DNA from: Candidatus Levyibacteriota bacterium
GTDB taxonomy: Bacteria > Patescibacteriota > Microgenomatia > Levybacterales > GWA1-39-11
Direction of reading: 5' to 3'
Length of the DNA stretch: 64,000 nucleotides
Assembly (NCBI GenBank): GCA_036788695.1
Contig: DAIQMY010000005.1
Span: 5,190-69,189, forward strand
Part shown: piece by piece, positions 2,199-56,893 of the stretch
How positions within the stretch are numbered: the first letter of the stretch is position 1
Layout: the number at the start of each line of letters is the position of its first letter
Notes under the pieces: model-generated
The model's database searches: none
What the model saw: the letters and a program-made list of their open reading frames with translations, nothing else
Told to the model about the DNA's origin: nothing
Position numbers and translations under genes: made by a program

Positions 2199-2200
2199 AT

Positions 2201-2683: not shown

Positions 2684-2685
2684 AA

Positions 2686-3447: not shown

Positions 3448-3545
3448 ATATTAATAGTACAAAGTTTAGATAAAAGTAGCAAGAAGTAGAGTTTTTGTCC
3501 ACAAAAAAACTCCTTTCGGAGTTTTTTAATTATATTTTGCGTATA

Positions 3546-4049: not shown

Positions 4050-4240
4050 GTTAAAAATATCTAATCAGAAAACAGAATAGCTTGTCAATAAGCAATTTCT
4101 TACAGGATGAATATTTATTCTATTATTAACTTTTTCTGTCTGTAAATTAAACAATTTTAAAACGTTATAAATTACTAGAGGATAGATTGTATCTTAAAAA
4201 ATATATAGATTTAACAAAAAATCTTGTCTTTCCTATTTTT

Positions 4241-4855
4241 TTAAATCTGAAGAAAAGAAACCTCTATTGCCATTTTTTTATTCACATTATTTGTCTTTGT
4301 CAACTTATATGATGTGTGCAATTTCCGAAGCACCGGTAAAACTACGGGGGCAAACGTTATGTCTTTTATAATAAGACTTCTTAGGACCAGAAGCACTGAT
4401 TCGATATTTTCTACTTCTACAACAGCCGGCAATAGACTCGTAATTCCAAAAGTATCAGAAGATGTGGCAAGTACTTTCCTTATTCCATCAAAAAGCTCAG
4501 TATCCACTTCTTTTTTTTCTTTATCTAAATTCACTATTTGACATCTGGATAAAATTGTTGGTAATAAGTCGTCTTTTGTATTTGACACAAAAAACATAAC
4601 ATTTTGAGTAGTTGCTTCTTCAACTGTTTTCAGGAGTGAGTTTTGAGCTTCGATTGTCGGATTGGTTATAATTATCACCCGCATAGCGCCTTCCTTCAAT
4701 TTTAAAGATATTGTATGCTGAAGCAGGCGAACCTGCCCAATTTTGCAGTTATCAAGTCTTATTACATGATAAGAGGGGATGTTATGTATTTTTATGAAAG
4801 AACTTATATGTGCTTCTTGAAAATGTAAGGATCCAATGAGTGCGTATGTATGCAT
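4241..4855 (-). CDS. minimal DNA polymerase III delta' (HolB)-like protein
   Basis: NSLLKTVEEATTQNVMFFVSNTKDDLLPTILSRCQIV matches the delta' signature LLKTLEEPP...LLPTIxSRCQ. The P-loop region is degenerate (HTYALIGSLH) and the protein is short at 204 aa. Confidence 0.5.
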   Translation of the reverse strand: MHTYALIGSLHFQEAHISSFIKIHNIPSYHVIRLDNCKIGQVRLLQHTISLKLKEGAMRVIIITNPTIEAQNSLLKTVEEATTQNVMFFVSNTKDDLLPTILSRCQIVNLDKEKKEVDTELFDGIRKVLATSSDTFGITSLLPAVVEVENIESVLLVLRSLIIKDITFAPVVLPVLRKLHTSYKLTKTNNVNKKMAIEVSFLQI

Positions 4856-4900
4856 ACTTCTTTATTGACATTATAATAACGATTCTAATACTATTAAACA

Positions 4901-4925
4901 AGTATCCCACGCAAATTGGGATACT
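4901..4925 (+). promoter_or_regulatory. perfect 9-bp inverted repeat (AGTATCCCA-N7-TGGGATACT) 6 nt upstream of the pilB ATG
   Basis: Read directly in the sequence. It lies in the divergent region between the holB-like gene and pilB, and a TTGACA hexamer sits at 4865-4870. Confidence 0.4.
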
Positions 4926-4930
4926 GTTTT

Positions 4931-6676
4931 ATGGATCCTGCCCAAACAAACCAACAACCACAAACTAATCAAAATATTAAGCCTGAAAAAAATATTTCAG
5001 ATGTACTCATAGAAGAAGGGCTTCTAACATCTGAACAATATAAAAGATTAACAGAGGAAGCGTCTGCTCGTGGAACAACAGTTGAGCAATTACTTCTTGA
5101 AACAAACATCATTAATGAAGAGCAGTATTATGAAGCGCGAGCTAAGCTTACGGGAATACCATTTGTCTCTGTCGCAACGCTCCCATTTTCACCTGAATCA
5201 CTAAGTTTTATTCCTAAAAATGTTGCGGAACGCTTTCAGGTAGTGCCTTTTTCTTATGATAAAACCAAGCTCTCTATTTCTCTTGCAATGGCTGACCCGC
5301 TTGATTTTGAGGCAATAAATTTTATCCAACAGAAAACTGGAATGACTGTTGTTGCATACCAAGCGATTCCTTCAGAAATTGCTGAGGCAATAAAAAACGA
5401 ATACAACATAGGACTCATAGGTGAGGTTAAAGAGGCTTTAAAGGAAACTGAGCAAATTTCTAAAGTAAAAACGTTTGATCAGGAAAGTATTGCAAAAGTT
5501 ATAAAAGAAGCTCCAATTGCTAAAATTGTTTCGACCATTTTAGAATATGCAATTAAAAGCCGCGCATCAGATGTTCATATTGAACCTCAAGAAGATCGCG
5601 TACGGGTACGCTACCGAATTGATGGAATTTTATACGAAAGACTAGCCCTCCCTAAAGCAGTGCAAGATGCTGTAATTTCCAGAATAAAAATTCTTTCTGA
5701 TTTAAAAATAGATGAACGGAGAACCCCGCAAGATGGCAGATTTAATTTTAAATATCTTGACCAGGAAGTAGATCTTCGTGTATCTGTTCTACCTACCACT
5801 TATGGTGAGAAAATCGTTATGCGTCTACTTCGAAAAAGTGGAGGAGTGCCTACACTCACTGAACTTGGAATACGAGGAACTGCTCAAAAAGAATTAGAAG
5901 CAGCTATTTCAAGACCCCATGGGATAATTATTGTCTGCGGACCTACAGGGAGTGGAAAAACAACAACTCTCTACGCAGTACTTTCAAGGATAAACACCAC
6001 AAAAGTAAATATATCAACACTGGAAGACCCAGTTGAGTATCAAATACCAGGAGCCAACCAAGTACAAATAAATCCAGATGTTGGACTTACGTTTGCAAGC
6101 GGTTTAAGAGCATTTCTAAGACAGGATCCAAATATTATACTAGTAGGTGAAATTCGCGATAAAGAAACAACAGATCTTGCAATTCAAGCAGCCTTAACTG
6201 GACATTTAGTCTTCTCAACACTTCATACCTCAAACGCATCAGGTGCTCTTCCACGACTCATAGATATGGGAGCAGAAACTTTTCTCCTAGCGTCTACCAT
6301 GACGGCAATTGTGGGACAAAGAATAGCTCGAAAGATTTGCCCAGATTGTAAAATATCCTATGTCCCCACTCCTGAAGTAGTCTTAGAGATAAAGCATGTA
6401 TTAGGTACATTAATGCCTCAGGGAGAAATACACTTATACAAAGGAAACGGCTGTGAATCGTGCGGACAGTCCGGATATCTTGGCAGAGTAGGAATATATG
6501 AAGTTCTAACAGTAACAAATCAAATCGCGAAAATGATTCTAGAACGGTCTGACGCAAATTCCATTGAACAAGAAGCAAAAAAAGAAGGAATGATTACCAT
6601 AAAAGAAGATGGCTACCTTAAAGCCTTGGAGGGCACAACTACAATTGAGGAAGTACTGCGCGTTGCCCAAGATTAA
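4931..6676 (+). CDS. pilB: type IV pilus assembly ATPase PilB (GspE family)
   Basis: Walker A GPTGSGKTTTLYA, the GspE N-terminal domain and a CxxC...CxxC tetracysteine. The ATG at 4931 is preferred over the track's TTG at 4916. Confidence 0.85.
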   Translation: MDPAQTNQQPQTNQNIKPEKNISDVLIEEGLLTSEQYKRLTEEASARGTTVEQLLLETNIINEEQYYEARAKLTGIPFVSVATLPFSPESLSFIPKNVAERFQVVPFSYDKTKLSISLAMADPLDFEAINFIQQKTGMTVVAYQAIPSEIAEAIKNEYNIGLIGEVKEALKETEQISKVKTFDQESIAKVIKEAPIAKIVSTILEYAIKSRASDVHIEPQEDRVRVRYRIDGILYERLALPKAVQDAVISRIKILSDLKIDERRTPQDGRFNFKYLDQEVDLRVSVLPTTYGEKIVMRLLRKSGGVPTLTELGIRGTAQKELEAAISRPHGIIIVCGPTGSGKTTTLYAVLSRINTTKVNISTLEDPVEYQIPGANQVQINPDVGLTFASGLRAFLRQDPNIILVGEIRDKETTDLAIQAALTGHLVFSTLHTSNASGALPRLIDMGAETFLLASTMTAIVGQRIARKICPDCKISYVPTPEVVLEIKHVLGTLMPQGEIHLYKGNGCESCGQSGYLGRVGIYEVLTVTNQIAKMILERSDANSIEQEAKKEGMITIKEDGYLKALEGTTTIEEVLRVAQD

Positions 6677-6683
6677 TATACAT

Positions 6684-7751
6684 ATGGAAATTTTAGAATT
6701 ACTTGAAAAAACAGTTCAGAACAATGCCTCAGACCTTCACTTGGTAGTCGGGGATGTACCGGCTGTAAGAATTGATGGAAGATTAACATTTCTAAATACC
6801 TATCCACAGATAGAAAAAACGGAAATGGAAAAAATGATTGGAAGCATTTTAACTGCCCACCAGAAAGAATTCTTAATAAATAACAGAAGTCTAGATTTCT
6901 CATACGCCTATGGGGGAGGAAATTTTGGAGACAAGGGACGATTTAGAGTTAACTGTTACTATCAAAGGGGAACGCTTGCTGCTGCCTTCAGACTTCTCCC
7001 TACAAGAATCAGAACCATAGAGGAATTGGGACTTCCTCCGGTCTGTAGTACATTTTCAAAATTAAGACAGGGGTTTGTCCTCGTAACAGGACCTACGGGA
7101 CATGGAAAATCTACAACGCTTGCCGCAATTATTAATCAGATAAACAATGAGCGTTCATCAAATATTATTACAATTGAAGACCCTATTGAGTACATGTACC
7201 CGAAAGGGAAGAGCATAGTCTCTCAAAGAGAATTAGGTTCTGACACTTTTTCATGGCATGAAGGCCTTAAGAGCGCGTTAAGAGAAGATATTGATGTTGT
7301 TTTAATTGGTGAAATGCGAGACCCTGAAAGTATAGCAACGGCTATTTCAATTGCGGAAACGGGTCATCTAGTTTTCTCAACACTTCACACAAATTCAGCG
7401 GCTCAAAGCATTGACCGCATAATAGACTCTTTCCCGGAAGCGCAACAGGCTCAAATTAGAGTACAACTTGCAGGAACTCTTGCAGGAATAATCTCTCAAA
7501 GACTTATTGAGAGAATTGATGCTGGTCGTGCTGTAGCCACCGAAGTCTTACTAGGAACAAATGCAGTTAGAGCAACCATCAGAGACGGAAAAACACATTT
7601 GCTTGATTCAATCATTGAAACCTCTCAAAACGAGGGCATGATACCTCTTGATGTATCTTTGGCCAATCTGGTAAAAGACGGCGCAATTGCGCTTGATACA
7701 GGGAAAAGCTATACGCTTCATATGGACTCTTTCCTAAGACTACTCTCATAA
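6684..7751 (+). CDS. pilT: twitching motility / retraction ATPase PilT
   Basis: GPTGHGKSTTLAAIINQIN, IEDPIEY and GEMRD motifs. The ATG at 6684 lies just after the pilB stop. Confidence 0.85.
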   Translation: MEILELLEKTVQNNASDLHLVVGDVPAVRIDGRLTFLNTYPQIEKTEMEKMIGSILTAHQKEFLINNRSLDFSYAYGGGNFGDKGRFRVNCYYQRGTLAAAFRLLPTRIRTIEELGLPPVCSTFSKLRQGFVLVTGPTGHGKSTTLAAIINQINNERSSNIITIEDPIEYMYPKGKSIVSQRELGSDTFSWHEGLKSALREDIDVVLIGEMRDPESIATAISIAETGHLVFSTLHTNSAAQSIDRIIDSFPEAQQAQIRVQLAGTLAGIISQRLIERIDAGRAVATEVLLGTNAVRATIRDGKTHLLDSIIETSQNEGMIPLDVSLANLVKDGAIALDTGKSYTLHMDSFLRLLS

Positions 7752-7758
7752 ATGCACT

Positions 7759-8961
7759 ATGCGATACTCATACACAGCAGTAAACAATACGGGAACAAAA
7801 CAAAAAGGATTACTTGAGGCAAATAGTCAAAAAGAGGTAACGGATTACTTAAGAGAAAATAATCTCACACCTATACTAATCCGTGAAGAACATGAGACTC
7901 ATCTTCCATTTTTAAATTATGTAAATCGTGTCAAGCAAGATGATATTGTTATTTTTACTCGGCAATTGGCATCAATGATACAAACTGGTCTTACCCTGAT
8001 TGAAGCACTTACTATTCTAAAAGACCAGGCACAGAAAACACAATTAAAAGCTCTCCTTGCAGACCTTATTGCAAATATATCCGGCGGTAGCTCATTCTCT
8101 GAAGCTCTTTCTTATCACAGAGATGTCTTTTCAGATGTTTATATTGCATTGGTCCGTGCTGCTGAAGCAGGAGGAGTAATGGATAAAATACTATCCCGCC
8201 TAGCAGACAATCTGGAACGCTCTCAAGATTTAAAGAGAAAAGTAAGATCAGCTCTTTTCTACCCACTTATAGTTGTTGTTGGTGTAGTCTTGGTAATTGT
8301 AGTCATGAACGTTTTTGTTATTCCTCAGTTGTCTACACTTTACGAAGGTTTGAATGTGGAACTGCCACTCACCACAAGAATTGTCCTAGGATTCTCAAAA
8401 CTATTTACTACATTTTCTCCCCTCATGATAATTCTCATAATTGCTTGTGTATTCTTGTACAAACGTTTTTCAAAAAGCGGTACGGGAAAAGAACTTATTG
8501 ACTCATATAAGCTAAAAGTGCCTGTTATCGGAAAAATTTTAGTTTTATCCATAGAAGACGAGATTGCGCGAACGCTATCTCTTCTCATTTCTTCCGGTAC
8601 ATCAATTCTGGAAAGTCTTCACATAGCAGCAAACGTTGCTGGAAACTATAAATATAAACAAGGAGTTCTTTCCTCAGCAACTTTAGTAGAAAAAGGGTTA
8701 ACGCTTTCAACAGCATTTGAGCAACAAAACATATTCCCAGCAATTTTTATTCAAATGACAAAGGTAGGAGAATCAACGGGTAAAATTGATGAAAACTTAA
8801 ATAAGGTTGCAGAGTATTTTGAACGAGACCTAGAACTTAAAGTAAAGACGCTCACAACATCAATTGAGCCTATACTATTAGTAGTATTGGGTGTAACAGT
8901 AGGATTTTTAATTATTTCAGTTATCTCTCCTATCTACGGACTTATTTCATCAATTCAGTAG
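7759..8961 (+). CDS. pilC: type IV pilus inner-membrane platform protein PilC (GspF family)
   Basis: Two T2SS-F repeats, about three TM segments, and a position immediately after pilB and pilT. Confidence 0.8.
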   Translation: MRYSYTAVNNTGTKQKGLLEANSQKEVTDYLRENNLTPILIREEHETHLPFLNYVNRVKQDDIVIFTRQLASMIQTGLTLIEALTILKDQAQKTQLKALLADLIANISGGSSFSEALSYHRDVFSDVYIALVRAAEAGGVMDKILSRLADNLERSQDLKRKVRSALFYPLIVVVGVVLVIVVMNVFVIPQLSTLYEGLNVELPLTTRIVLGFSKLFTTFSPLMIILIIACVFLYKRFSKSGTGKELIDSYKLKVPVIGKILVLSIEDEIARTLSLLISSGTSILESLHIAANVAGNYKYKQGVLSSATLVEKGLTLSTAFEQQNIFPAIFIQMTKVGESTGKIDENLNKVAEYFERDLELKVKTLTTSIEPILLVVLGVTVGFLIISVISPIYGLISSIQ

Positions 8962-14822: not shown

Positions 14823-15872
14823 ATGCAATCATTTGTAATAAGAACAAGTATTCTTTTGCTTTTTTCTCTTTTTTTTATTGTACTTTTGTATATCGTTCTT
14901 TCAGATAGAAAAACAGGTAATCTTCCCGTAACAGAAAGTAACTCAAACTCTGCCGCCCTAGAAAATCCTCTTTCTGTCATTGCCATGAGAAGTCGTTCAT
15001 ACCCAGGATCAGAACTTGTCATTGAAGAAGAATTGCCAGAAGGCGCAAACTACAAACAGTATGTCGCGTCATATTTTTCCGATGATTTAAAGATTTATGG
15101 ACTGCTTACTATCCCTACGTCAAAAAAACCAGAAAAAGGCTATCCTGCGATCATTTTTAACCATGGCTATATACCTCCCGCGGAATATAAGACTACCGAA
15201 AGATATGTTTCATATCAAGACTCACTTGCACGAAATGGATATATTACTTTTAAGTCGGATTATAGGGGGCATGGAAACTCTGAGGGAAATCCTGAGGGTG
15301 CTTATTTTTCGCCCGCGTACACAGTTGACGTATTAAACGCGCTCTCAAGCGTAAAGAAGCTATCACAAGTAGATACAAATAATATAGGCATGTGGGGACA
15401 CTCGCTCGGGGGAAACATTACTCAACGAGCTCTAGTTGTAAAACCCCAAGATATACAAGCAGCTGTTATATGGGGTGGAGTAGTAGGATCATATGAAGAT
15501 ATTTTTTCTGAGTGGTGGAACAAACGTCAAGTACCCACGACAACACCTCGTAATCCTGAACAACAATCCTATAGGCCCACTCGTCAAAATTTTATAAATA
15601 TGTATGGGCAGCCAAGCGCAGGCAATCCTTTTTGGGCTGATATTTCACCTACTACTTACATTTCCGATGTTTCTTCGCCTGTACAACTTCATCATGGGCT
15701 AGCAGACGAAACAGTACCGTACGCGCTTTCCCAAAAGTATTATGACGCACTTAAAGATAAAGGAAAGACTGCGGAAGTCTTTTATTATGAAAATACTGAT
15801 CACAATATCTCACAATCTTTCAACTTAGCAATGGAGCGTTCAGTTGACTTTTTTGACAAATATCTTAAATAA
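14823..15872 (+). CDS. membrane-anchored alpha/beta-hydrolase (S9/dienelactone-hydrolase-like)
   Basis: N-terminal TM segment, a GHSLGG nucleophile elbow and a C-terminal HHG...D...H region. Confidence 0.55.
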   Translation: MQSFVIRTSILLLFSLFFIVLLYIVLSDRKTGNLPVTESNSNSAALENPLSVIAMRSRSYPGSELVIEEELPEGANYKQYVASYFSDDLKIYGLLTIPTSKKPEKGYPAIIFNHGYIPPAEYKTTERYVSYQDSLARNGYITFKSDYRGHGNSEGNPEGAYFSPAYTVDVLNALSSVKKLSQVDTNNIGMWGHSLGGNITQRALVVKPQDIQAAVIWGGVVGSYEDIFSEWWNKRQVPTTTPRNPEQQSYRPTRQNFINMYGQPSAGNPFWADISPTTYISDVSSPVQLHHGLADETVPYALSQKYYDALKDKGKTAEVFYYENTDHNISQSFNLAMERSVDFFDKYLK

Positions 15873-15879
15873 TACATAT

Positions 15880-16422
15880 ATGCAGCTTCCAGAAAAATCT
15901 TCGCCCGTAGAGGAAAGGGTAGTGAAATTAATAATTTTTATTGGTGAACGACTGGCTATTATCTTGTTTGCAATTTTTGCAACAACACTTTTATTTACAA
16001 GCTTTACAACTCAAGCATTTTCAAAGCAGGAGGAAGCAGAATTTGTAAAGCCAGACAGCAATTGGTACCAAAAGAATATCACACTTCCCGCTCTCAAATC
16101 TGAATATAAATCTGTGGAATATACAATTTCCGAAGCTCAAATAACCCCTACACCAAACAGTAAAATAGAGCACGCTAATGCTTCTGATAACTCAATTTGG
16201 GAAAAATTAGCACAATGTGAGACTCATGGAAATTGGAGTGCTGATACAGGAAATGGATATTACGGTGGACTTCAATTTAATATGTCAGCCTGGCAGGCCG
16301 CAGGCGGATCAGGAAATCCTGCCCAAACTTCAAAAGACGAACAAATAATGAGAGGAAAGATACTTCAGGAAAAACGAGGTTGGGGCCCATGGGGAGCCTG
16401 CGCAAAAAAACTAGGACTCTAA
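15880..16422 (+). CDS. transglycosylase-like (Rpf-like) domain protein, membrane-anchored
   Basis: C-terminal CETHGNWSADTGNGYYGGLQFNMSAWQAAGG...WGPWGAC matches the resuscitation-promoting-factor / transglycosylase-like domain. Confidence 0.6.
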   Translation: MQLPEKSSPVEERVVKLIIFIGERLAIILFAIFATTLLFTSFTTQAFSKQEEAEFVKPDSNWYQKNITLPALKSEYKSVEYTISEAQITPTPNSKIEHANASDNSIWEKLAQCETHGNWSADTGNGYYGGLQFNMSAWQAAGGSGNPAQTSKDEQIMRGKILQEKRGWGPWGACAKKLGL

Positions 16423-17436: not shown

Positions 17437-18705
17437 ATGGGTTCAAGAATCAAAAATATGTTTTTCTTTCCAGTTGCATACTACTTTGCATTTTTTGCTC
17501 AAATAAGACTTAGGAAATGGCAACCAAGAATTATAGTAATTACAGGATCAACAGGTAAAACTACACTGTTTACGCTTATTGAATCACAACTGGGAAATAG
17601 CGCTCATTACTCTCACCACGCAAATTCCGCAATAGGCATACCTTTTGATATTCTAGACCTCCATAGAAAAACACTAAAACCAATAGAATGGGTGTCTCTT
17701 GTTCTGAAGGCTCCAATTCAAGCATTCAAAGCTCCTTACTCACAAAAACTATACATAGTAGAATGTGATGCTGATAGGCCTGGAGAAGGAAAATTTCTTG
17801 CTCATCTATTAAGGCCTGAAGCAACTCTATGGATATCATCCGGCAGAACTCACAGCATGAATTTTGACAAATTAGTGCCCGACTCTTTTAAAAACGTAGA
17901 AGATGCAATAGCATATGAATTTGGTAACTTTATTGAAAAAACAAATTCACTTGTAGTAATAAATGGTGATTCAAACCTTATGGAAAAACAGCTCAAGAGA
18001 ACAGGAGCTACAATTCAAAAAGTCACGATAAAAAATCTAAGTAATTATGAAATATCAAATAGCGGTACAGTTTTTAGCTTAGGGGAAACAAGAGTTAAAC
18101 TCAAGGCATTACTTCCGAAAGAAATTTACTACTCAATTCAAATGACAAAAATACTATGTGAATATCTTCAAAAACCTTTTGATCCATCATTTCCCAGCCT
18201 TAAACTTCCGCCTGCGAGAAGCTCACTATTCAGGGGCATAAAAAATATTACCATAATTGACTCAACTTATAATGCAAATTTTTCTTCTATGCATGCAGTT
18301 GTCACTATGTTTAACGCATATCCCGCAAAACAAAAATGGGTCGTAATAGGCGACATGCTTGAGCAAGGCAAGGAGGAGAAGGAGGAGCATGAAAAACTTG
18401 CAGCTTTATTACTTGAACAAAATTACAAAAGAATAGTACTACTTGGACCTAGGGTAAAAAAATATACATATCCCAAGCTTCTGGAAAAGCTTCCCACAAA
18501 CACTCCAGTTGCTGTGTTTGAGAACCCGAAAGAAGTTCTCATACATCTTCAAGAAAACATACGGGGAGGGGAAACTATTCTTTTTAAGGGAGCCAGATTT
18601 CTGGAAGGAGTGATTGAGAACCTATTACTTGATAAAAAAGAAAAGTCACGGCTTGTTCGTCGGGAAAAAGTCTGGGAAGAACGGAGGAAAAAATGGGGGC
18701 TCTAG
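17437..18705 (+). CDS. Mur-ligase-family amide ligase (N-terminal TM anchor, PgsB/CapB- or MurF-like)
   Basis: Mur ligase P-loop IIVITGSTGKTTL is preceded by a hydrophobic segment. No MurF N-terminal domain is recognisable. Confidence 0.5.
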   Translation: MGSRIKNMFFFPVAYYFAFFAQIRLRKWQPRIIVITGSTGKTTLFTLIESQLGNSAHYSHHANSAIGIPFDILDLHRKTLKPIEWVSLVLKAPIQAFKAPYSQKLYIVECDADRPGEGKFLAHLLRPEATLWISSGRTHSMNFDKLVPDSFKNVEDAIAYEFGNFIEKTNSLVVINGDSNLMEKQLKRTGATIQKVTIKNLSNYEISNSGTVFSLGETRVKLKALLPKEIYYSIQMTKILCEYLQKPFDPSFPSLKLPPARSSLFRGIKNITIIDSTYNANFSSMHAVVTMFNAYPAKQKWVVIGDMLEQGKEEKEEHEKLAALLLEQNYKRIVLLGPRVKKYTYPKLLEKLPTNTPVAVFENPKEVLIHLQENIRGGETILFKGARFLEGVIENLLLDKKEKSRLVRREKVWEERRKKWGL

Positions 18706-19391
18706 AGAAAAAAATATACATATTACATGGATGGACAACTGACGTTACCCGATGGGAACCGTTTTTAACTGAACTGAAAAATTTAAAAATTACACCAATT
18801 CTTCTTCCTATTCCTGGACTGACAGCACCGCTTGATAAACCATGGGGTTTAGACGATTACGTTCAATGGCTCTACGAAATTGTCAATAAAGAGCCAAAAA
18901 TTGCACTTCTTGGACATTCCAATGGTGGAAGAATAGCCCTTTCCTTCGCGATTAAATATCCTGAAGAGATTAATCAGTTGTTCTTATTAGACAGTGCTGG
19001 AATTTATCATAACGATTTTATATCGCGCACAAAAAGAAATGCATTCCGAACAATCTCTAAGCTTGGGAAGAAGTTTACCAATAATTCATCCGCAAAAAAT
19101 TTACTCTATAAAATAGCACAAGAGTCAGATTATAAAAATGCTAACCTAATACAGCAAGAAACCATGAAAAAGCTTATAGCAGTCGATCTTCTCCCAAAGC
19201 TGTCTGAAGTAAAAGCTCAAACATACATAATCTGGGGAAAAAATGACCATGTGACACCTTACACTGACGCGCTTATTTTAAAATCAGGCATACAAAACTC
19301 AAAGCTTTTTACCATTACCGATGGTGCACACTCACCACAATTTACCCACACATCTGACGTTGTAAATATTATAAAGGAGAATTTAGTTTGA
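18693..19391 (+). CDS. alpha/beta-hydrolase fold protein
   Basis: LLGHSNGGRIALSF nucleophile elbow. The start overlaps the upstream gene by 13 bp. Confidence 0.55.
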   Translation: MGALEKKIYILHGWTTDVTRWEPFLTELKNLKITPILLPIPGLTAPLDKPWGLDDYVQWLYEIVNKEPKIALLGHSNGGRIALSFAIKYPEEINQLFLLDSAGIYHNDFISRTKRNAFRTISKLGKKFTNNSSAKNLLYKIAQESDYKNANLIQQETMKKLIAVDLLPKLSEVKAQTYIIWGKNDHVTPYTDALILKSGIQNSKLFTITDGAHSPQFTHTSDVVNIIKENLV

Positions 19392-20563
19392 ACATCTTTA
19401 ATTCACTCGGATCAAACTATACGTTTTCATTTGTGCTAAACAGTTTAAAAAAGAGGGACGTAAATTCCCGAAGTAAGCTTTCAAAGTATCTTCAAAAAAG
19501 ATATAGCGGGGAAGTAATTCTCACACATAAGGGACGAGACGCCATGGGAATTGCTCTTCGGGAGCTTTCCCTCCCCCCGAAAAGCAAGATAGCAGTAACA
19601 GGATTCACATGCATTGCGGTAATAGAGTCTATTGAGAAGCAAAACCTAACCGCGTATTTTTTAGACATAGACGAGAAATCGCTCAATTTTACAAGTGAGG
19701 AGCTAGAAAAAGCTATACAGAAAGAAAAAATTAAAGCTGTTATTGTACAAAATACTTTAGGATTCCCTTGTAACATAGAAAAAATTCAAAGTATATGCAA
19801 AAAACACCATATTGTACTTATTGAAGACCTTGCGCATTCTATAGGCACTGTTTACCAAAACGGAAATGAGGCAGGAACTGTGGGAGATTTTACCGTGCTA
19901 TCTTTCTCTCAGGATAAAGTTGTTGACAGCGTATCAGGAGGTGCAGTTATCGCAAGGAAGCACGGTATAAAAAACACCAAAGAGAAAAAAAGCAAAGAGA
20001 GCAATTCCGAAAAAATATATCCACTCCTAACATGGACCATTCGAAAAACATATCCTATAAAGATAGGGGTCTTGTTGCACATTGCAAGCAAAAAACTAAA
20101 ATTTCTATCTGACCCCATGAAAAACTCAACTAATCAAAAGCTAACCTCATGGCATGCTGGTCTAATTCTTTCTGGTTTCAATTTACTTGCGGAATCAATT
20201 CAACATAAAAGAAATATCGCACAGATCTATACAAAATATCTTCCTGAATATATACAGTCAAATGAGATTTCAAAGCTTATACCTATTGGTACAAACTTAA
20301 GATTTCCAATTTTTATAAAAAACAGAGACTCACTTATTGCGTATCTTCAAACAAAAGGGGTCTATGTTTCTGATATATGGTATGACGCGCCTGTTGCTCC
20401 CAAAAAATACCTTGGCCTTGCCCGGTATCCAAAAGATACATGCCCTAATGCTCAAAACGTCGCAAACAGAATCATAAATCTTCCAACACATAAAAACATT
20501 TCTGAAAAAAACGCCCGTACATTATCTAAATTAATTACTGTATGGTTACAACAAAACAAATAA
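19388..20563 (+). CDS. DegT/DnrJ/EryC1-family PLP-dependent aminotransferase
   Basis: LSFSQDKVVDSVSGGAVI (PLP-lysine region), a fold-type I layout and a 4-bp ATGA overlap with the upstream gene. Confidence 0.6.
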   Translation: MNIFNSLGSNYTFSFVLNSLKKRDVNSRSKLSKYLQKRYSGEVILTHKGRDAMGIALRELSLPPKSKIAVTGFTCIAVIESIEKQNLTAYFLDIDEKSLNFTSEELEKAIQKEKIKAVIVQNTLGFPCNIEKIQSICKKHHIVLIEDLAHSIGTVYQNGNEAGTVGDFTVLSFSQDKVVDSVSGGAVIARKHGIKNTKEKKSKESNSEKIYPLLTWTIRKTYPIKIGVLLHIASKKLKFLSDPMKNSTNQKLTSWHAGLILSGFNLLAESIQHKRNIAQIYTKYLPEYIQSNEISKLIPIGTNLRFPIFIKNRDSLIAYLQTKGVYVSDIWYDAPVAPKKYLGLARYPKDTCPNAQNVANRIINLPTHKNISEKNARTLSKLITVWLQQNK

Positions 20564-21555
20564 CAAGTAGGAGCGAGTGGGAAAAATTCCTAGAGAAACA
20601 TCCAGAAGCAAATTTTCTTCAAAGTTTTGCATGGGGAGAATTTCACAAATCACTTGGGCACAAAATTTTTCGTTCTGGATTTTATGATAATGGGAAGTTA
20701 TGCGGTGTTATGTTGTCGATTACTGAACATGCACGTCGCGGAACATATCTAACAGTACCCGCAGGTCCTATTATTGATCTTAGTCAAAAAATATATGCAA
20801 GCGCGTTTGTAAAGGAAGTTAGAAGAATAGGAAAAGAAAATTCTTGCGCGTTTGTAAGAGTAAGACCACAGCTATTATCAACTACTACCTCAGTCAAACT
20901 ATTTAAAGCGCTTGGCTTCAGAAATGCTCCCATGCATCTCCATGCAGAACTAACAAATCAACTTGATATAACAAAAACTGAAGATGAACTTTTGTCAGCT
21001 ATGAGAAAAGGAACGCGCTATGAAATAAGAAAGGCACAAAAAATAGGAGTAACAATCTCAGAAAGTATAAACCCAGATGACATAGATATGTTCTATCAAA
21101 TGCAAATGAGAACTGCAAAACGCCAAGATTTTGTTCCGTTTACAAAAAACTTTTTAAAAACCCAATTTGAAACTTTTGTAAAAGAAAAAAACGCGGTATT
21201 ATATTCTTCATTTTTTGAGGATAAACTTCTCTCTCAAGCGTATGTAATTTTCTATGGAAAAGAAGCAGTATACCATTATGGTGCATCGACTGATACGGGA
21301 AGAGAGTATCCAGGCGCGTATCTTCTGCAATGGCACGCAATACAAGAAGCAAAAAAAAGAAACATCACACGATATAATTTTTGGGGGGTTGCACCCTCCG
21401 CAAACCACAGATTTTCTAATTTATCACTTTTTAAAAGAGGGTTTGGAGGAGAAGATGTTGAATACCTTCATGCACAAGATCTTGTATTAAGCTATCCAAA
21501 ATACCTTATAAACCTTTTAGTAGAACTGTTAAGAAAAAAAATTAGACGAGTGTAA
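20542..21555 (+). CDS. FemAB-family (aminoacyl-tRNA-dependent peptidoglycan peptidyltransferase-like) protein
   Basis: N-terminal EWEKFLEKHPEANFLQSFAWGEF..., with length and layout typical of the FemABX family. Confidence 0.6.
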   Translation: MVTTKQITSRSEWEKFLEKHPEANFLQSFAWGEFHKSLGHKIFRSGFYDNGKLCGVMLSITEHARRGTYLTVPAGPIIDLSQKIYASAFVKEVRRIGKENSCAFVRVRPQLLSTTTSVKLFKALGFRNAPMHLHAELTNQLDITKTEDELLSAMRKGTRYEIRKAQKIGVTISESINPDDIDMFYQMQMRTAKRQDFVPFTKNFLKTQFETFVKEKNAVLYSSFFEDKLLSQAYVIFYGKEAVYHYGASTDTGREYPGAYLLQWHAIQEAKKRNITRYNFWGVAPSANHRFSNLSLFKRGFGGEDVEYLHAQDLVLSYPKYLINLLVELLRKKIRRV

Positions 21556-21630: not shown

Positions 21631-22401
21631 GTGATCAAGGTCTTCTTTAAGAATTATTTACTATCTCCAATTTGCTATATAGTACTTACGCTAATTACTC
21701 TTTTCATTTTAAATCAATTCTCGTATTTTAATATTTCACTGAGTTCAAATAATAATTACAACACATTTGAAGTGATTGGAACTGGTAAGGTAACTGCGGC
21801 TCCAAATATAGCTACCACACTATTTACAATAGAAGAAAAGGGCACTACACAGGAACAAGCTAAAAACTCTGCAAACGCAAAACAAAACCAGGCAATAAAA
21901 GACTTAACAGCTTTGGGTATCCCAAAAGCTAATATAAAAACGACTGGCTTTTTTGTCAATCCTAATTTTGAAGATGAAACCTTAACGCTACAGGCACCGG
22001 CAAGACGAGTGCAGCAAGGATATATTGCTACAGTCACAACGCAGGTCAAAGGAGAAAATGTTGACCAAATAAATAAAGCAATTGATAAACTCACAGCACT
22101 AGGAATAAATGTAGGCGGAGTAGAGTATCAATATAAAGACAAACAACAATATGTAAACGAGGCACAGGACAAGGCTATCGCAAACGCCAAGGAGCAGGCA
22201 CAAAATATTGCAAAAGCAGCAGGGTTTAAACTTGGGAAAATTGTAACTGTAAGAAATGCGGCAAACGACGGACAATATCAGCCTTATTCATCAGAAGCAA
22301 TGAACCTAACTAAAACTGCCCCTGATACAAACACGCAACTTCAGCCTGGAGAAAATGAAATTACTTCTCAGATGGGAGTTACTTACTACATTAGAAATTA
22401 G
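21631..22401 (+). CDS. SIMPL-domain (DUF541) secreted/periplasmic protein
   Basis: FEVIGTGKVTAAPNIATTLFTIE ... KLGKIVTV layout typical of the SIMPL/26 kDa periplasmic immunogenic protein family. Confidence 0.55.
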   Translation: MIKVFFKNYLLSPICYIVLTLITLFILNQFSYFNISLSSNNNYNTFEVIGTGKVTAAPNIATTLFTIEEKGTTQEQAKNSANAKQNQAIKDLTALGIPKANIKTTGFFVNPNFEDETLTLQAPARRVQQGYIATVTTQVKGENVDQINKAIDKLTALGINVGGVEYQYKDKQQYVNEAQDKAIANAKEQAQNIAKAAGFKLGKIVTVRNAANDGQYQPYSSEAMNLTKTAPDTNTQLQPGENEITSQMGVTYYIRN

Positions 22402-22747: not shown

Positions 22748-23680
22748 CTAGCGATTCCCCTGATGAAATTTTTTATGAACTTCTTTGAGTTGAGGGTTTG
22801 TTATGTGAGTATAGATTTGTGTCGTTGATATATTTTTATGTCCCAACATTTCTTGAACTGAACGTAAATCCGCACCGTTTGACAGCAGATCAGTTGCAAA
22901 TGAATGTCTCATGGTATGCGGAGTTGCTTTAACAGGAATACGGGATGACTTAACATATCTTTCAACGATTCGCTCAATAGAACGAGGAGTTAGTCTCATT
23001 TTTTCACCATTATTTTCTATGCTAGGTGACTTTGCGTATCTAATAAAAAGCGGCTTAAATGTATCCATTCGTATTTCCGTGTATTTTGTTATCCAAAATA
23101 CTGCTGAATCAGATAAAAACACAATTCTAGCTCTATTTCCTTTTCCTATCACCCCAAATTCGCGTGTTTTAAGATTTATAGAGTCTCTATTTAAGCGTGT
23201 AAGCTCAGATACACGCAGGCCAGTTGAAAAAAGCATTTCTAAAATTGTTCTATCCCGTAGTCCCTTTTCCGACCCTGTATCTACTGCATTAAATAACTCT
23301 CTTAGGTGGTTTTGGTCTAAAAACTTCAAGGACCTAGATTCAGCCCTTGGAAGGTCTATCTTTTCAGGGGCTAGTGTATTTTTATCGTTTCGTATGAGAT
23401 ACCGTAAGCACGATCGAAGGGCTATAATGTGGTAGCTTTGAGTAATTCTTTTAAGTGTTAATCCTTTCTCATCCGTCAGATTAGATAAATACACCCGATA
23501 CTTACGCACTACATCTGTAGTGATGCTTGAAACATCTCCTTTTTTTTCATACTCCTCAAACCACAACCGAAAACGTTCAAGATAAAATTTATAATTACGA
23601 ATAGTCAACTTTGAGGAATTTTTTTCTATTTCCAAATATTCAAGAAATTGATTTATGTATTGTTCTAATTCACTTTTCAT
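22748..23680 (-). CDS. tyrosine site-specific recombinase (XerC/XerD-like)
   Basis: LRVSEL (box I Arg), HTMRHSFATDLL (H-x-x-R) and LGHKNISTTQIYTHI (catalytic Tyr) are all present. Confidence 0.8.
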   Translation of the reverse strand: MKSELEQYINQFLEYLEIEKNSSKLTIRNYKFYLERFRLWFEEYEKKGDVSSITTDVVRKYRVYLSNLTDEKGLTLKRITQSYHIIALRSCLRYLIRNDKNTLAPEKIDLPRAESRSLKFLDQNHLRELFNAVDTGSEKGLRDRTILEMLFSTGLRVSELTRLNRDSINLKTREFGVIGKGNRARIVFLSDSAVFWITKYTEIRMDTFKPLFIRYAKSPSIENNGEKMRLTPRSIERIVERYVKSSRIPVKATPHTMRHSFATDLLSNGADLRSVQEMLGHKNISTTQIYTHITNPQLKEVHKKFHQGNR

Positions 23681-24916
23681 GGGCAGAGTAGGGTACTAAC
23701 TATATTTTGCGACATACAACACGGTATGTCAATGGAGACATTCACTTACTCCTGAGTTTCTGATTATGAATCTATGGAAAAATAAAAAAATATTTTTAAT
23801 TTCACAAAGCAGAATAACATTATGCGACATAATCATGATTGCTTAGGATAATGACTAGTTGCAAATGACTTATATTTTTCAACATGTATTGGATTATTTG
23901 GGCGAATTCGCACATGTTTACTTAAATAAATTCTCAAAATAAATCCGTATGGAAATTCTGGTGTCGTAAGACCAATCTTGCTCATTTTATTTCTAAGGTT
24001 TAAGAGACGAATCCGCGCGCTAGCCATATTAGGATTTCCTGAACTACCCTTTGTATACCCAATCCTGATCCTTGTAAACTAGCCCTTCCAGAATGCGATT
24101 CTAGAGGGTTTTTATAAAGAAGATGGGTAGATAGTCATCTATATTTTGTCAATACTGCATTGCATGTTAAAAGTCGCCGTGGAAAATAACTCTGTATTTA
24201 CGAACCTATAGTGAGGGTATTTTTATGTCTTTTTTAAAAGAGGATATAAGGAGACAATTCAGATTTCCAAATATAGCAAAACTCAATAGAATATGAAAAT
24301 AAAACATGCTATAAAAATGGCAAGGCACTCTTCCGCACATATCTTATTTATGTCGTAAAAGTATTATTGTGCGACATAATAATGTCACCATATCAAAAGC
24401 TAGAGTACTGCAGAATGGTTATCTGCCAATTACATATGTCTGCTTGTTGCGACATTACAAGTAAAGGAAATGAGGCTATTTTAGCCCCTCCCCCGGGTAG
24501 TACCTTTTAAACCTACCAAAATCCGTGAAAATAAATAGTTTCACTCCACAAACAGAGTGCAAAAAGTATTAATAAATCAATCTTTTTTAATCTATTTAGC
24601 CTCAAATTACCACTCTATAGTAGCGCCTTCTTACAAAAAGAGGTTTCGTATTTTTTTCGTTTTCCTCTTGTTCTAGCCTGAAGACAAATAAAGGCATCCA
24701 TAGCACCTATGCTCAGGAGAGTCGTGAAAAGTCATACGTAAAATCTTGCTATTTTTTGAGGCTATTTTGAGGCTAGTGAAAAGTTTTTTACCGAAGCTAA
24801 ACTTATCCACATTTATTATTATGGGATGTAATTTAACATGTATCAAACTATATCATTTGAGGCTAATTATAGGTATTACTCCTCTATTCCACTTCCCTTT
24901 CTATTCGTAATTATAC
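23681..24916. repeat. 1.2 kb non-coding repeat-rich region containing TGCGACAT x4 (23708, 23823, 24370, 24448, same orientation), TGAGGCTA x5 (tandem TTTTGAGGCTA x2 at 24754-24775, plus 24471, 24856 and inverted at 24597), a GACATAC-N6-GTATGTC hairpin (23711-23730) and the near-palindrome ATTATGCGACATAAT (23819-23833)
   Basis: Motifs read directly. The track's only ORF here is 64 aa (23833..24027); the longest other ATG ORF I found is 23 aa. Confidence 0.6.
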
Positions 24917-55734: not shown

Positions 55735-55968
55735 ATGGTTGAAGCGCATAAACCGCATGAACCTAATAAAAAAACTGCAAAGGTAATAGGATGTATTGTG
55801 GGGAGCAGCATAATACTTCATGGATTGAGCGCTCTTACACTTTCCACTCAGCACAATACAGAAACTGAAGAACATGACCGTGCAGTAAGTTACGCTCAAC
55901 AAGGGGCGGTTGAAATTGTATCTGGAGCTATTGTTTTATTGGCAACATTTTCACGCAAAAAGAGATGA
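55735..55968 (+). CDS. small hypothetical membrane protein
   Basis: A 77-aa ORF with two hydrophobic stretches. Weak. Confidence 0.2.
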   Translation: MVEAHKPHEPNKKTAKVIGCIVGSSIILHGLSALTLSTQHNTETEEHDRAVSYAQQGAVEIVSGAIVLLATFSRKKR

Positions 55969-56850: not shown

Positions 56851-56893
56851 GAGATAATTGTACGAAGTATGCGCATCTATAATCAAGATGGTT

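What the first reader, a model, noticed from the sequence alone, without database searches (positions are those of the whole stretch)
17437..21555. Translationally coupled Mur-ligase-like / alpha-beta-hydrolase / DegT aminotransferase / FemAB operon - candidate undescribed envelope-modification pathway
Four + strand genes are chained by start/stop overlaps (18693 vs 18705, 19388 vs 19391, 20542 vs 20563), which implies co-translation and stoichiometric function. Gene 1 carries the Mur-ligase P-loop (ITGSTGKTT) after a hydrophobic N-terminal anchor and lacks a recognisable MurF N-domain. That architecture is closer to the PgsB/CapB amide-ligase layout than to a cytoplasmic Mur enzyme. DegT-family enzymes make amino-sugars, and FemABX enzymes use aminoacyl-tRNA to add amino acids to lipid-linked peptidoglycan precursors. 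I do not know of this four-enzyme combination as a characterised pathway, although I could not search for it. It sits inside a larger envelope island (membrane-anchored S9-like hydrolase 14823-15872, Rpf-like transglycosylase 15880-16422, SIMPL protein 21631-22401). In a reduced-genome organism this could encode a non-canonical peptide or amino-sugar decoration of the wall or of surface proteins.
Basis: partly seen in the sequence, partly recalled or inferred. Interest (0 to 1): 0.7.

Follow-up and report, generated by a model that had tools for sequence, protein, structure and literature searches.

The report
MurF operon with Ddl-replacing enzyme trio
In this tiny-genome bacterium, the last cell-wall peptide ligase (MurF) is coupled to three enzymes sitting exactly where related bacteria keep the two enzymes that make D-Ala-D-Ala, which points to an undescribed route for finishing the cell-wall precursor.

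Summary
Four overlapping + strand genes (17437-21555) encode a Mur ligase, an alpha/beta hydrolase, a DegT-family PLP enzyme and a FemABX-family transferase, in a Levybacteria (Patescibacteria) genome.

Gene 1 is not PgsB/CapB-like. By profile, fold and position it is this lineage's MurF, minus the N-terminal domain. Canonical MurC, MurD and MurE lie beside it in relatives.

The order g1-g2-g3-g4 holds in all 64 classifiable cassette-bearing loci from GTDB species, often directly before mraY. In the 7 loci without g2-g4, ddl (with alr in 4 of the 7) follows g1 instead. Two further loci show a clean swap inside the frame DnaB-g1-[X]-Maf. The switch happened at least twice (99/100 bootstraps). 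g1 co-varies with it: KGAR in cassette types, KGSQ in ddl types, KGSR in canonical MurF. The Fem-like enzyme keeps its aminoacyl-tRNA catalytic Phe-Lys but has lost the residues that bind UDP-MurNAc-pentapeptide.

Best reading (about 0.5): g2-g4 replace Ddl/Alr and supply MurF's C-terminal building block by a tRNA-dependent route. Whole-genome absence of ddl/alr could not be tested. I found no description of this in the literature.

The parts
17437..18705 (+). g1: MurF-type Mur ligase lacking the N-terminal domain. It has the P-loop GSTGKT, an amphipathic N-terminal helix, and the cassette-type motif KGARF at residues 384-388.
   Evidence: Pfam Mur_ligase_M and Mur_ligase_C. Best NCBIfam match is murF TIGR01143 at 132 bits, below the 288.6 cutoff. 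AlphaFold2 model pLDDT 88.6. The top 10 Foldseek hits are all MurF. It occupies the murF slot before mraY in L006, L021, L028, L055 and L084. Residues that discriminate the two locus types.
18693..19391 (+). g2: small cytoplasmic alpha/beta-fold serine hydrolase with conserved HGW, GHSNGGR, Asp and His motifs.
   Evidence: Pfam Abhydrolase_1, Hydrolase_4 and Abhydrolase_6. No NCBIfam equivalog reaches its cutoff. The triad motifs are conserved across 74 orthologues.
19388..20563 (+). g3: divergent DegT/DnrJ/EryC1-family (fold type I) PLP enzyme with a TTG start, the PLP lysine in SFSQDK, the IEDLAH motif and a family-specific N-terminal FNSLGSNY motif.
   Evidence: Pfam PF01041 at 153.9 bits. 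All sugar-aminotransferase equivalogs score far below their cutoffs. PDB matches are sugar or inositol aminotransferases at E >= 1e-19. Conservation was assessed across 68 orthologues.
20542..21555 (+). g4: FemABX-family aminoacyl-tRNA-dependent transferase without a coiled-coil insert. The catalytic F297-K298 pair is invariant, but the UDP-MurNAc-pentapeptide-contacting residues of FemX are not conserved.
   Evidence: Pfam FemAB at 150.8 bits. FemX equivalog NF047883 scores 60 bits against a cutoff of 500. PDB matches are S. aureus FemX and FemA and Weissella FemX. Residue mapping used three alignments, with the residue list taken from PMC8280954.
18683..18687 (+). GGAGG ribosome-binding site for g2, located inside the 3' end of g1.
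   Evidence: Read directly from the sequence.
19374..19379 (+). AAGGAG ribosome-binding site for the g3 TTG start. The TTG overlaps the g2 TGA stop (TTGA).
   Evidence: Read directly from the sequence.

Best explanation
The four genes form a peptidoglycan-precursor operon.

g1 is the MurF of this lineage (Microgenomates-type Patescibacteria). It is the fourth Mur ligase, which adds the C-terminal unit to UDP-MurNAc-tripeptide, and it has lost the N-terminal domain.

g2-g4 are a three-enzyme module that functionally replaces Ddl and Alr. Instead of racemising alanine and joining two D-Ala with ATP, the Fem-like g4 forms a peptide bond from an aminoacyl-tRNA onto a small, probably carboxylate-bearing amine acceptor such as an amino acid. 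The PLP enzyme g3 sets the stereochemistry or the amino group, either by epimerising a residue with a free alpha-amine or by transaminating a keto precursor. The serine hydrolase g2 edits or releases products, much as VanX does in the vanHAX system. The product is handed to a MurF whose substrate-binding domain has been retuned (KGSR to KGAR).

Shown here: the gene identities, the coupling, the conservation, the MurF identity of g1, the mutually exclusive positional alternation with ddl(-alr), the repeated switching, and the co-variation of g1.

Inferred: that ddl and alr are absent genome-wide from cassette genomes, the acceptor of g4, the reaction of g3, the role of g2, and the chemical identity of the product (D-Ala-D-Ala or another dipeptide).
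For: (1) g1 is MurF. Its only family-level matches are to MurF models. Its fold matches MurF best. Canonical MurE (377-443 bits against a cutoff of 257.3) and MurD (361 against 212) lie beside it in relatives, with no other MurF candidate nearby. g1 plus the cassette lies directly before mraY in five lineages.

(2) Alternation. Among 71 classifiable GTDB loci, 64 have g1-g2-g3-g4 and none of those has ddl or alr within 10 kb. The other 7 lack g2-g4, and all 7 have ddl just downstream of g1, with alr as well in 4 of them (Fisher p = 7.5e-10, uncorrected for phylogeny).

(3) In-situ swap inside a conserved frame. L004 reads M24 peptidase, DUF5666, DnaB, (333 aa ORF), g1, abhydrolase, DegT, FemAB, Maf, Hydrolase_3. 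L169 and L170 read M24 peptidase, DUF5666, DnaB, g1, Ddl, Alr, Maf. The flanking proteins are 53-74% identical.

(4) The switch is repeated: at least 2 changes in 99 of 100 bootstrap trees and at least 3 in 84 of 100. Different upstream synteny (DnaB or YceG) supports this.

[quoted passage not shown] Residue 386 is Ala in 96% of cassette types and Ser in 9 of 9 ddl types; canonical MurF has K(G/A)SR. Residue 387 is Arg versus Gln, and residues 364, 388, 416 and 420 also differ.

(6) g4 keeps the catalytic F-K pair (63 of 63). It has lost R211 (invariant Phe), K36, W39, Y103 and T209 of the FemX precursor site, and Asp108 is Arg in 62 of 63 sequences.

(7) Close homologues of ddl-type Ddl and Alr were found only on ddl-type contigs, and none on cassette contigs of up to 951 kb.

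(8) The same CPR gene clusters also alternate MurL (attach L-Glu, then epimerise) with MurI. So swapping of D-amino-acid supply modules has a precedent in these genomes.
Against: Whole-genome absence of ddl and alr from cassette-type genomes was not shown. Only +-10 kb around each locus and about 84 kb of the source genome could be inspected. The contig-length cross-check covers only the best 120 hits of each search.

L171 shows that ddl-alr can lie away from g1, so ddl could be hidden elsewhere in cassette genomes.

Fem enzymes acylate amines, and aminoacyl-tRNAs carry L-residues. Making a D,D-dipeptide therefore needs chemistry that no DegT-family enzyme is known to perform; the family's characterised members act on keto-sugars or cyclitols.

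g4's closest characterised relatives add branch residues to finished precursors.

The residue-level inferences rest on alignments at about 20% identity.
Confidence: 0.5

Rival explanations
1. Precursor decoration. g1 is MurF and uses ordinary D-Ala-D-Ala made by ddl and alr located elsewhere in the genome. g4 is a classical Fem transferase that adds a branch or cross-bridge residue to the third-position diamino acid. g3 and g2 tailor that branch or another part of the precursor. The genes sit after murF only because peptidoglycan genes tend to cluster.
For: g4's best characterised homologues are FemX/FmhB, FemA and Weissella FemX, and its catalytic Lys is conserved. The cassette lies in dcw/mur clusters. 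Genome-wide absence of ddl is unproven, and ddl-alr can lie away from g1 (L171).
Against: This reading needs ddl-alr to relocate every time the cassette appears at the g1-Maf slot, at least twice independently. It does not explain the perfect exclusivity, 0 of 64 against 7 of 7. It does not explain why MurF's amino-acid-binding domain co-varies with the partner. The FemX residues that hold UDP-MurNAc-pentapeptide, including both basic pyrophosphate contacts, are lost in g4. No close Ddl or Alr homologue was seen on cassette contigs.
Confidence: 0.3
2. A non-peptidoglycan glycan pathway. g3 makes an amino sugar and g4 aminoacylates it, as FemAB and DegT genes may do in exopolysaccharide or PEP-CTERM loci. 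g2 is an esterase. The link to murF is operonic hitch-hiking.
For: DegT-family enzymes are typically sugar aminotransferases. FemAB and DegT genes co-occur in an exopolysaccharide cluster (PMC3684757). g4 matches the PEP-CTERM FemAB model weakly (50.9 bits against a cutoff of 260).
Against: No dehydratase or oxidoreductase to make the keto-sugar substrate, no glycosyltransferase and no flippase travels with the cassette in any of 64 loci. The only invariant partner is MurF, with start/stop overlap. The alternation with ddl-alr and the g1 co-variation are unexplained.
Confidence: 0.1
3. g1 is a membrane-anchored PgsB/CapB-like amide ligase that builds a poly-amino-acid or an unusual amide polymer, not a Mur pathway enzyme.
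For: g1 lacks the Mur N-terminal domain and begins with a hydrophobic-looking helix.
Against: There is no PgsB or CapB family hit; the only family-level matches are to MurF models. The top ten fold matches are MurF, with MurT, MurE and cyanophycin synthetase lower. The helix is amphipathic, with a Kyte-Doolittle value of 0.92. In ddl-type relatives the same protein is followed by ddl-alr. It sits in the murF slot before mraY.
Confidence: 0.02

Closest known systems
MurF (UDP-MurNAc-tripeptide:D-Ala-D-Ala ligase)
   Same: g1 shares the central ATP-binding and C-terminal domains, the best HMM and fold matches, the murF position before mraY, and adjacency to ddl-alr in some relatives.
   Different: g1 has no N-terminal (UDP-binding) domain and scores below the family cutoff (132 bits against 288.6). 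Its C-terminal motif is KGAR rather than K(G/A)SR. It is translationally coupled to a hydrolase, a PLP enzyme and a Fem-like enzyme.
Ddl plus Alr (canonical D-Ala-D-Ala supply)
   Same: They occupy the same genomic slot immediately downstream of g1, in the same syntenic frame, and are mutually exclusive with g2-g4.
   Different: The enzyme families are unrelated: an ATP-grasp ligase and a fold type III racemase, against a GNAT-fold tRNA-dependent transferase, a fold type I PLP enzyme and a serine hydrolase. Equivalence of the products is inferred, not shown.
FemX (Weissella viridescens), FmhB and MurM
   Same: g4 shares the double-GNAT FemABX family membership, the catalytic Phe-Lys pair (F304-K305 in FemX, F297-K298 in g4), and a size like FemX_Wv with no coiled coil.
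   Different: Most of the eight precursor-binding residues are changed: R211 to an invariant Phe, K36 to His/Asn/Tyr/Gln, W39 to Leu, Y103 to Val/Ala and T209 to Val. Asp108 is an invariant Arg. The FemX equivalog scores 60 bits against a cutoff of 500.
VanH-VanA-VanX (established knowledge)
   Same: The three-gene logic for feeding MurF an alternative C-terminal unit is similar: one enzyme makes the unusual residue, one joins it, and a hydrolase removes the unwanted product.
   Different: The enzyme families are entirely different. The cassette uses no ATP-grasp ligase. It appears to be the default state of a large lineage rather than a mobile resistance determinant.
MurD2/MurL alternative pathway (PMC8788868 and PMC5808125; established knowledge)
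   Same: It is a precedent for bypassing a racemase in peptidoglycan precursor synthesis by attaching an L-residue and epimerising it afterwards. MurL genes lie in the same CPR clusters (L006, L021, L044).
   Different: MurD2/MurL concerns position 2 (Glu) and uses a Mur ligase plus a cofactor-independent epimerase. It involves no tRNA-dependent step.
[quoted passage not shown]
   Same: These are aminoacyl-tRNA-dependent enzymes that form peptide bonds onto small-molecule amines rather than wall precursors. The ascamycin cluster pairs a tRNA-dependent aminoacyl transferase (AcmF, an AlaRS-like enzyme, not Fem-like) with an alpha/beta hydrolase (AcmE) that reverses the reaction.
   Different: Those are secondary-metabolite enzymes. 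None is linked to MurF or to primary cell-wall synthesis.

Membership tests
MurF (TIGR01143 / Mur ligase family) | The profile score reaches the curated cutoff. | tested here: not met
   132.1 bits against a cutoff of 288.6. The ddl-linked orthologue in L076 scores 141.5 bits.
MurF (TIGR01143 / Mur ligase family) | A central ATP-binding domain with a P-loop, plus the Mur C-terminal domain. | tested here: met
   Mur_ligase_M and Mur_ligase_C are present, with the P-loop GSTGKT. The top 10 Foldseek hits are MurF, with TM up to 0.71.
MurF (TIGR01143 / Mur ligase family) | An N-terminal UDP-MurNAc-peptide-binding domain. | tested here: not met
   The protein starts with a single helix followed directly by the P-loop at residue 37. 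The best matched stretch begins at profile position 116.
MurF (TIGR01143 / Mur ligase family) | The genomic role of fourth Mur ligase: the murF slot before mraY, with separate MurC, MurD and MurE. | tested here: met
   L006, L021, L028, L055 and L084. MurE and MurD score above their cutoffs.
MurF (TIGR01143 / Mur ligase family) | Uses D-Ala-D-Ala as substrate. | not testable with these tools
   Indirect only. g1 is followed by ddl-alr in ddl-type relatives. The KGSR motif reads KGAR in cassette types.
FemABX transferases (PF02388) | The profile score is above the gathering threshold. | tested here: met
   150.8 bits against 24.
FemABX transferases (PF02388) | A catalytic Lys (Lys305 of FemX_Wv) with the preceding Phe. 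| tested here: met
   K298 and F297 are invariant in 63 of 63 orthologues in the MAFFT and phmmer alignments. The role of Lys305 is taken from PMC12945691.
FemABX transferases (PF02388) | The UDP-MurNAc-pentapeptide / lipid II binding residues: Y103, K36, N38, W39, T209, R211, Y215 and Y256. | tested here: not met
   Only Y256 and Y215 are retained (as Y and F/Y). R211 is an invariant Phe, and K36, W39, Y103 and T209 are changed.
FemABX transferases (PF02388) | Use of an aminoacyl-tRNA donor. | not testable with these tools
   Inferred from the conserved catalytic pair only.
DegT/DnrJ/EryC1/StrS aminotransferases (PF01041) | A full-length profile match with the Schiff-base lysine. | tested here: met
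   153.9 bits over profile positions 33-354 of 360. The lysine of SFSQDK and the Asp of IEDLAH are conserved across 68 orthologues.
DegT/DnrJ/EryC1/StrS aminotransferases (PF01041) | Membership of a characterised sugar-aminotransferase equivalog (PseC, LegC, WecE, ArnB, DesI). | tested here: not met
   The best are LegC at 119 bits against 420 and PseC at 110 against 423.5.
alpha/beta-hydrolase fold serine hydrolases | A profile match with the nucleophile elbow G-x-S-x-G, an acid and a His. | tested here: met
   Abhydrolase_1 at 54 bits. GHSNGG, a conserved Asp and HxP are present in 74 orthologues. No equivalog is reached.
PgsB/CapB poly-gamma-glutamate ligases | A family profile or fold match better than to Mur ligases. 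| tested here: not met
   There is no PgsB hit for g1 at E <= 0.01, and MurF tops the fold search.
Ddl/Alr-independent precursor pathway (the proposal made here) | ddl and alr are absent from cassette-bearing genomes, and g2-g4 are absent from ddl-type genomes. | tested here: inconclusive
   This holds within +-10 kb of 64 + 7 GTDB loci, plus ddl-type L169 and L170 within +-8 kb, and within about 84 kb of the source genome. No close Ddl or Alr homologue lies on cassette contigs. Whole genomes could not be scanned.

The most novel reading that the evidence does not exclude
Most Microgenomates-type Patescibacteria have no D-Ala:D-Ala ligase and no alanine racemase. They complete the peptidoglycan stem peptide by a previously unknown aminoacyl-tRNA-dependent route. 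A Fem-like enzyme makes a free dipeptide, possibly not D-Ala-D-Ala. A DegT-like PLP enzyme sets its stereochemistry and a hydrolase edits it. A retuned MurF lacking the N-terminal domain attaches the product. This would be a third way, after Ddl and VanA-type ligases, to supply the MurF substrate, and it would carry intrinsic insensitivity to D-cycloserine.
Probability: 0.4. Interest if true: 0.88.

Novelty: new variant of a known kind. Interest (0 to 1): 0.74.

Why it matters
Ddl and Alr are regarded as near-universal steps of bacterial cell-wall synthesis, and they are the targets of D-cycloserine. MurF's substrate defines the D-Ala-D-Ala terminus recognised by penicillin-binding proteins and by vancomycin.

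A widespread lineage that swaps these two enzymes for a tRNA-dependent transferase, a PLP enzyme and a hydrolase would add a new branch to a textbook pathway. It would extend Fem-type chemistry from wall branching to core precursor synthesis. It would also help explain how ultra-small symbiotic bacteria build walls with minimal metabolism.

The repeated in-place swaps give a natural experiment: pairs of related genomes that differ mainly in this module. The hypothesis is directly testable by genome scans, complementation of E. coli ddl or alr mutants, and in vitro assays.

Tried and rejected
(1) The PgsB/CapB-like reading of g1 is rejected by the family, fold and synteny results.

(2) A transmembrane anchor in g1 is not supported: the hydropathy is too low and the helix is amphipathic.

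(3) The 'envelope island' is not a conserved unit. The S9 hydrolase, Rpf, FolD and SIMPL genes flank the cassette only in close relatives.

(4) A metagenome scan with a Ddl alignment was meant to test whether Microgenomates Ddl is always next to g1.

The lists are capped at 120 hits, so this is weak negative evidence.

(6) Extending the source contig by 10 kb on each side found pilus genes and a recombinase/Prim-Pol element, but no ddl, alr or dcw genes.

(7) Typing the adjacent MurE as DAP-type or Lys-type failed: the motif is EDPR/EDSR rather than DNPR, and no assignment can be made.

(8) Inferring the origin of ddl in ddl-type lineages gave identities and an NJ tree compatible with several acquisitions from other bacteria, but the question is unresolved.

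(9) Ten literature searches found no description of the cassette or of a Ddl-independent tRNA-dependent route. The library does not hold the paper behind PDB entries 9wqw, 9wqx and 9wqy ('aminoacyl-tRNA-dependent peptide synthase'), which match g4 weakly.

(10) Three-dimensional mapping of the discriminating g1 residues was not possible because model coordinates are not exposed.

Full report
**1. The observation**

The window is a 64 kb stretch of a low-GC (about 37%) chromosome. Its gene content is typical of Patescibacteria: gyrB and gyrA, type IV pilus genes, DUF5656, DUF5671, ruvC and efp. Exact-protein look-up places it on a 164 kb metagenome contig. Its closest named relatives are Candidatus Levybacteria.

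A GGAGG lies 5 nt before the g2 ATG, inside g1. An AAGGAG lies 8 nt before the g3 TTG, which overlaps the g2 stop. No terminator-like site falls inside the unit.

Pfam confirms the four families: Mur_ligase_M and Mur_ligase_C, Abhydrolase_1, DegT_DnrJ_EryC1 and FemAB.

**2. What gene 1 is**

The only family-level NCBIfam matches of g1 are to MurF models or MurF-containing bifunctional models. The best is TIGR01143 at 132 bits, below the 288.6 cutoff. There is no PgsB, CapB or FolC hit. PDB sequence matches are all MurF.

An AlphaFold2 model built from 26 orthologues is confident (pLDDT 88.6). Its ten best Foldseek matches are all MurF, with TM about 0.70 to the T. maritima and A. baumannii enzymes. 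MurT, MurE, MurC and cyanophycin synthetase rank below these.

The canonical N-terminal domain is missing. The protein begins with one helix and then the P-loop. That helix is amphipathic, with a median maximum Kyte-Doolittle value of 0.92, so it is not a convincing membrane anchor.

Relatives that keep an intact division/cell-wall cluster carry canonical MurC, MurD (361 bits against 212) and MurE (377-443 bits against 257.3). There g1 occupies the murF position directly upstream of mraY-ftsW-murG. L021, for example, reads: PBP, murE, murC, murB, murA, g1, g2, g3, g4, mraY, murL, murD, ftsW, murG.

So g1 is this lineage's MurF equivalent, not a PgsB/CapB-like enzyme.

**3. Conservation of the cassette**

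A scan of one genome per GTDB species returned 80 loci from Levybacteria, Daviesbacteria, Gottesmanbacteria, Roizmanbacteria and other Patescibacteria.

| Locus class | Number of GTDB loci |
|---|---|
| g1-g2-g3-g4 in this order | 64 |
| g1 without g2-g4 | 7 |
| Contig ends too soon to classify | 9 |
| Any other arrangement | 0 |

The flanks vary, so the four genes are the conserved unit. In close relatives the flanks are gyrA-S9 hydrolase-Rpf-FolD and SIMPL. In other lineages the cassette lies between DnaB and Maf, and in about eleven lineages it lies inside the mur/dcw cluster.

**4. The key pattern**

In all 7 loci without g2-g4, D-Ala:D-Ala ligase (ddl) follows g1, with alanine racemase (alr) as well in 4 of them. 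None of the 64 cassette loci has ddl or alr within 10 kb. Fisher's exact test gives p = 7.5e-10, without phylogenetic correction.

Two more ddl-type loci, found through Alr homologues, show a clean in-place exchange.

| Type | Locus | Gene order |
|---|---|---|
| cassette | L004 | M24 peptidase, DUF5666, x, x, DnaB, (333 aa ORF), g1, abhydrolase, DegT, FemAB, Maf, Hydrolase_3 |
| ddl | L169 | M24 peptidase, DUF5666, x, x, DnaB, g1, Ddl, Alr, Maf, Hydrolase_3 |
| ddl | L170 | M24 peptidase, DUF5666, x, x, DnaB, g1, Ddl, Alr, Maf |

The flanking proteins of L004 and L169 are 53-74% identical.

On a g1 tree the ddl-type genes are not monophyletic. At least two switches are needed in 99 of 100 bootstrap replicates, and at least three in 84 of 100. 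Different upstream neighbours (DnaB or YceG) agree with this.

**5. Co-variation of MurF with its partner**

Several g1 positions separate the two types almost perfectly.

| g1 residue | Cassette type | ddl type |
|---|---|---|
| 386 | Ala (96%) | Ser (9 of 9) |
| 387 | Arg (97%) | Gln (8 of 9), Lys (1) |
| 364 | Pro (100%) | variable |
| 388 | Phe (96%) | variable |
| 416 | Arg (99%) | variable |
| 420 | Trp (84%) | variable |

Percentages and 'variable' come from the 77 cassette-type and 7 ddl-type sequences. The 9-sequence counts for residues 386 and 387 add L169 and L170.

Canonical MurF enzymes read K(G/A)SR at this motif: T. maritima has LFKASRAV and A. baumannii has LFKGSRFT. So the Ser tracks with Ddl. 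[quoted passage not shown] Because the ddl type arose more than once, the shared states are convergent. That argues that MurF and the downstream module are functionally coupled through the incoming substrate.

**6. The three partner enzymes**

- g2 is a small cytoplasmic serine hydrolase with a conserved triad. It has no closer family assignment.
- g3 is a divergent DegT-family PLP enzyme. The Schiff-base lysine and the Asp of IEDLAH are conserved, and there is a family-specific N-terminal motif. Every sugar-aminotransferase equivalog scores far below its cutoff.
- g4 is a FemABX-family protein the size of Weissella FemX. The catalytic Phe-Lys pair is invariant (63 of 63). Of the eight residues reported to hold UDP-MurNAc-pentapeptide (PMC8280954), only Tyr256 and Tyr215 are kept. 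Arg211 is an invariant Phe, Lys36 is His/Asn/Tyr/Gln, Trp39 is Leu, Tyr103 is Val/Ala and Thr209 is Val. Asp108 is Arg in 62 of 63 sequences. Three alignment methods agree where they align these columns.

The g4 pattern fits an active aminoacyl-tRNA-dependent transferase whose acceptor is not bound as FemX binds its nucleotide precursor. A small anionic amine such as an amino acid is plausible. That last step is inference.

**7. Mechanism proposed, with confidence about 0.5**

g2-g4 replace Ddl and Alr in supplying the unit that MurF adds. g4 forms the peptide bond using an aminoacyl-tRNA as the activated donor, so no ATP-grasp ligase is needed. g3 provides the D-configuration or the amino group by PLP chemistry on a free alpha-amine or a keto group. 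g2 edits or releases products. The retuned MurF then attaches the result.

Precedents for the logic:
- VanH-VanA-VanX feeds MurF an alternative unit with a 'make, join, hydrolyse' trio (established knowledge).
- MurD2/MurL attaches L-Glu and epimerises it afterwards.
- MurL genes alternate with the glutamate racemase MurI in these same CPR clusters.
- Fem-like enzymes that acylate small-molecule amines are known, and the ascamycin cluster pairs a tRNA-dependent (AlaRS-like) aminoacyl transferase with an alpha/beta hydrolase that reverses its reaction (PMC12945691).

**8. What is not shown**

I could not scan whole genomes. Absence of ddl and alr is established only within +-10 kb of each locus and within about 84 kb of the source genome.

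Searches with ddl-type Alr and Ddl found close homologues only on ddl-type contigs. None lay on cassette contigs of 433-951 kb. The hit lists are capped at 120, so this is weak evidence.

L171 shows ddl-alr away from g1, so a hidden ddl in cassette genomes remains possible.

No DegT-family enzyme is known to act on amino acids or peptides, and the product of the module is unknown.

**9. Rivals**

(a) Decoration (0.3). g4 is a classical branch-adding Fem enzyme and ddl-alr lie elsewhere. This fits g4's nearest relatives. It requires repeated double events, and it leaves the exclusivity, the MurF co-variation and the lost precursor-binding residues unexplained.

(b) A non-peptidoglycan aminoacylated amino-sugar pathway (0.1). 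FemAB and DegT genes co-occur in an exopolysaccharide locus. However, no keto-sugar-forming enzyme, glycosyltransferase or flippase travels with the cassette, and MurF is the only invariant partner.

(c) A PgsB/CapB-like ligase (0.02). This is contradicted by every test.

**10. Novelty**

Ten literature searches found no description of this cassette or of a tRNA-dependent substitute for Ddl. Public annotations call g1 'hypothetical', 'glutamate ligase domain-containing' or 'cyanophycin synthetase'.

I rate it a new variant of a known kind, namely an alternative branch of peptidoglycan precursor synthesis. Interest is high because it concerns a textbook pathway, is widespread in a major lineage, and is directly testable.

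Noticed in passing
L006:5406-6662 (MurL); L021:14195-15598; L044:3455-4618; against L055:9220-9993 and L084:8912-9694 (MurI): Within the same family of CPR mur/dcw clusters, the MurL-type glutamate epimerase (Pfam MurL_N and MurL_epimerase_C) and the glutamate racemase MurI alternate next to murD. This is a second case of D-amino-acid supply modules being swapped in these genomes.
   Followed up: partly
L055:3632-5629; L006:3185-5404: There are gene fusions in CPR mur clusters. MurE is fused to a GlmU-like N-terminal nucleotidyltransferase domain (665 aa), and MurC is fused to MurB (739-754 aa).
   Followed up: partly
L021:4249-5517; L025:14160-15341 (- strand): The MurE orthologues of several cassette genomes also lack the N-terminal domain: their profile matches start at positions 64-68 of 472. 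They carry EDPR/EDSR where DAP-type MurE has DNPR. Loss of the N-terminal domain seems to be a trend among Mur ligases in this lineage.
   Followed up: partly
L058:11890-13062: In one ddl-type locus a class I/II aminotransferase (best NCBIfam hit GntC-like, 260 bits, below its cutoff) sits immediately before ddl, where other loci have alr. This suggests that a fold type I PLP enzyme can stand in for Alr.
   Followed up: partly
L171:6909-9122 (GCA_041906785.1, JAYRIM010000014.1): Here ddl-alr is not adjacent to g1, and the local frame is rearranged (Maf and DnaB inverted). Whether this genome also carries the cassette is unknown. It is the most useful single genome for testing exclusivity.
   Followed up: no
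window 12-8961: This is a type IV pilus gene cluster. It includes several N-methyl-motif pilins, the prepilin peptidase (2686-3447), a PilB-like ATPase (4916-6676), a second T2SSE ATPase (6609-7751) and a PilC-like platform protein (7759-8961). PilM-like genes lie further on in a near-identical contig that shares these genes (L173).
   Followed up: no
window 63538-63972 and beyond (L172:4032-10059): A putative integrated mobile element abuts the window end next to ychF. It encodes a large serine recombinase (Resolvase, Recombinase and Zn_ribbon domains), a Prim-Pol/AAA_25 primase-helicase-like protein and HTH regulators.
   Followed up: no
window 23681-24916: About 1.2 kb beside the XerC-like integrase (22748-23680) has no ORF of 110 aa or more and no Rfam match at gathering thresholds.
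   Followed up: no
window 55951-57874: Two tandem ribose-phosphate pyrophosphokinase (PRPP synthetase) paralogues lie on the - strand.
   Followed up: no
(P0269, P0285, P0286, P0335, P0338 against L169 Ddl): The Ddl of one ddl-type CPR clade is 63-69% identical to Ddl of candidate division KSB1 and Deltaproteobacteria. That is as close as, or closer than, its identity to Ddl of other ddl-type CPR clades (48-65%). It hints that ddl was re-acquired horizontally.
   Followed up: partly
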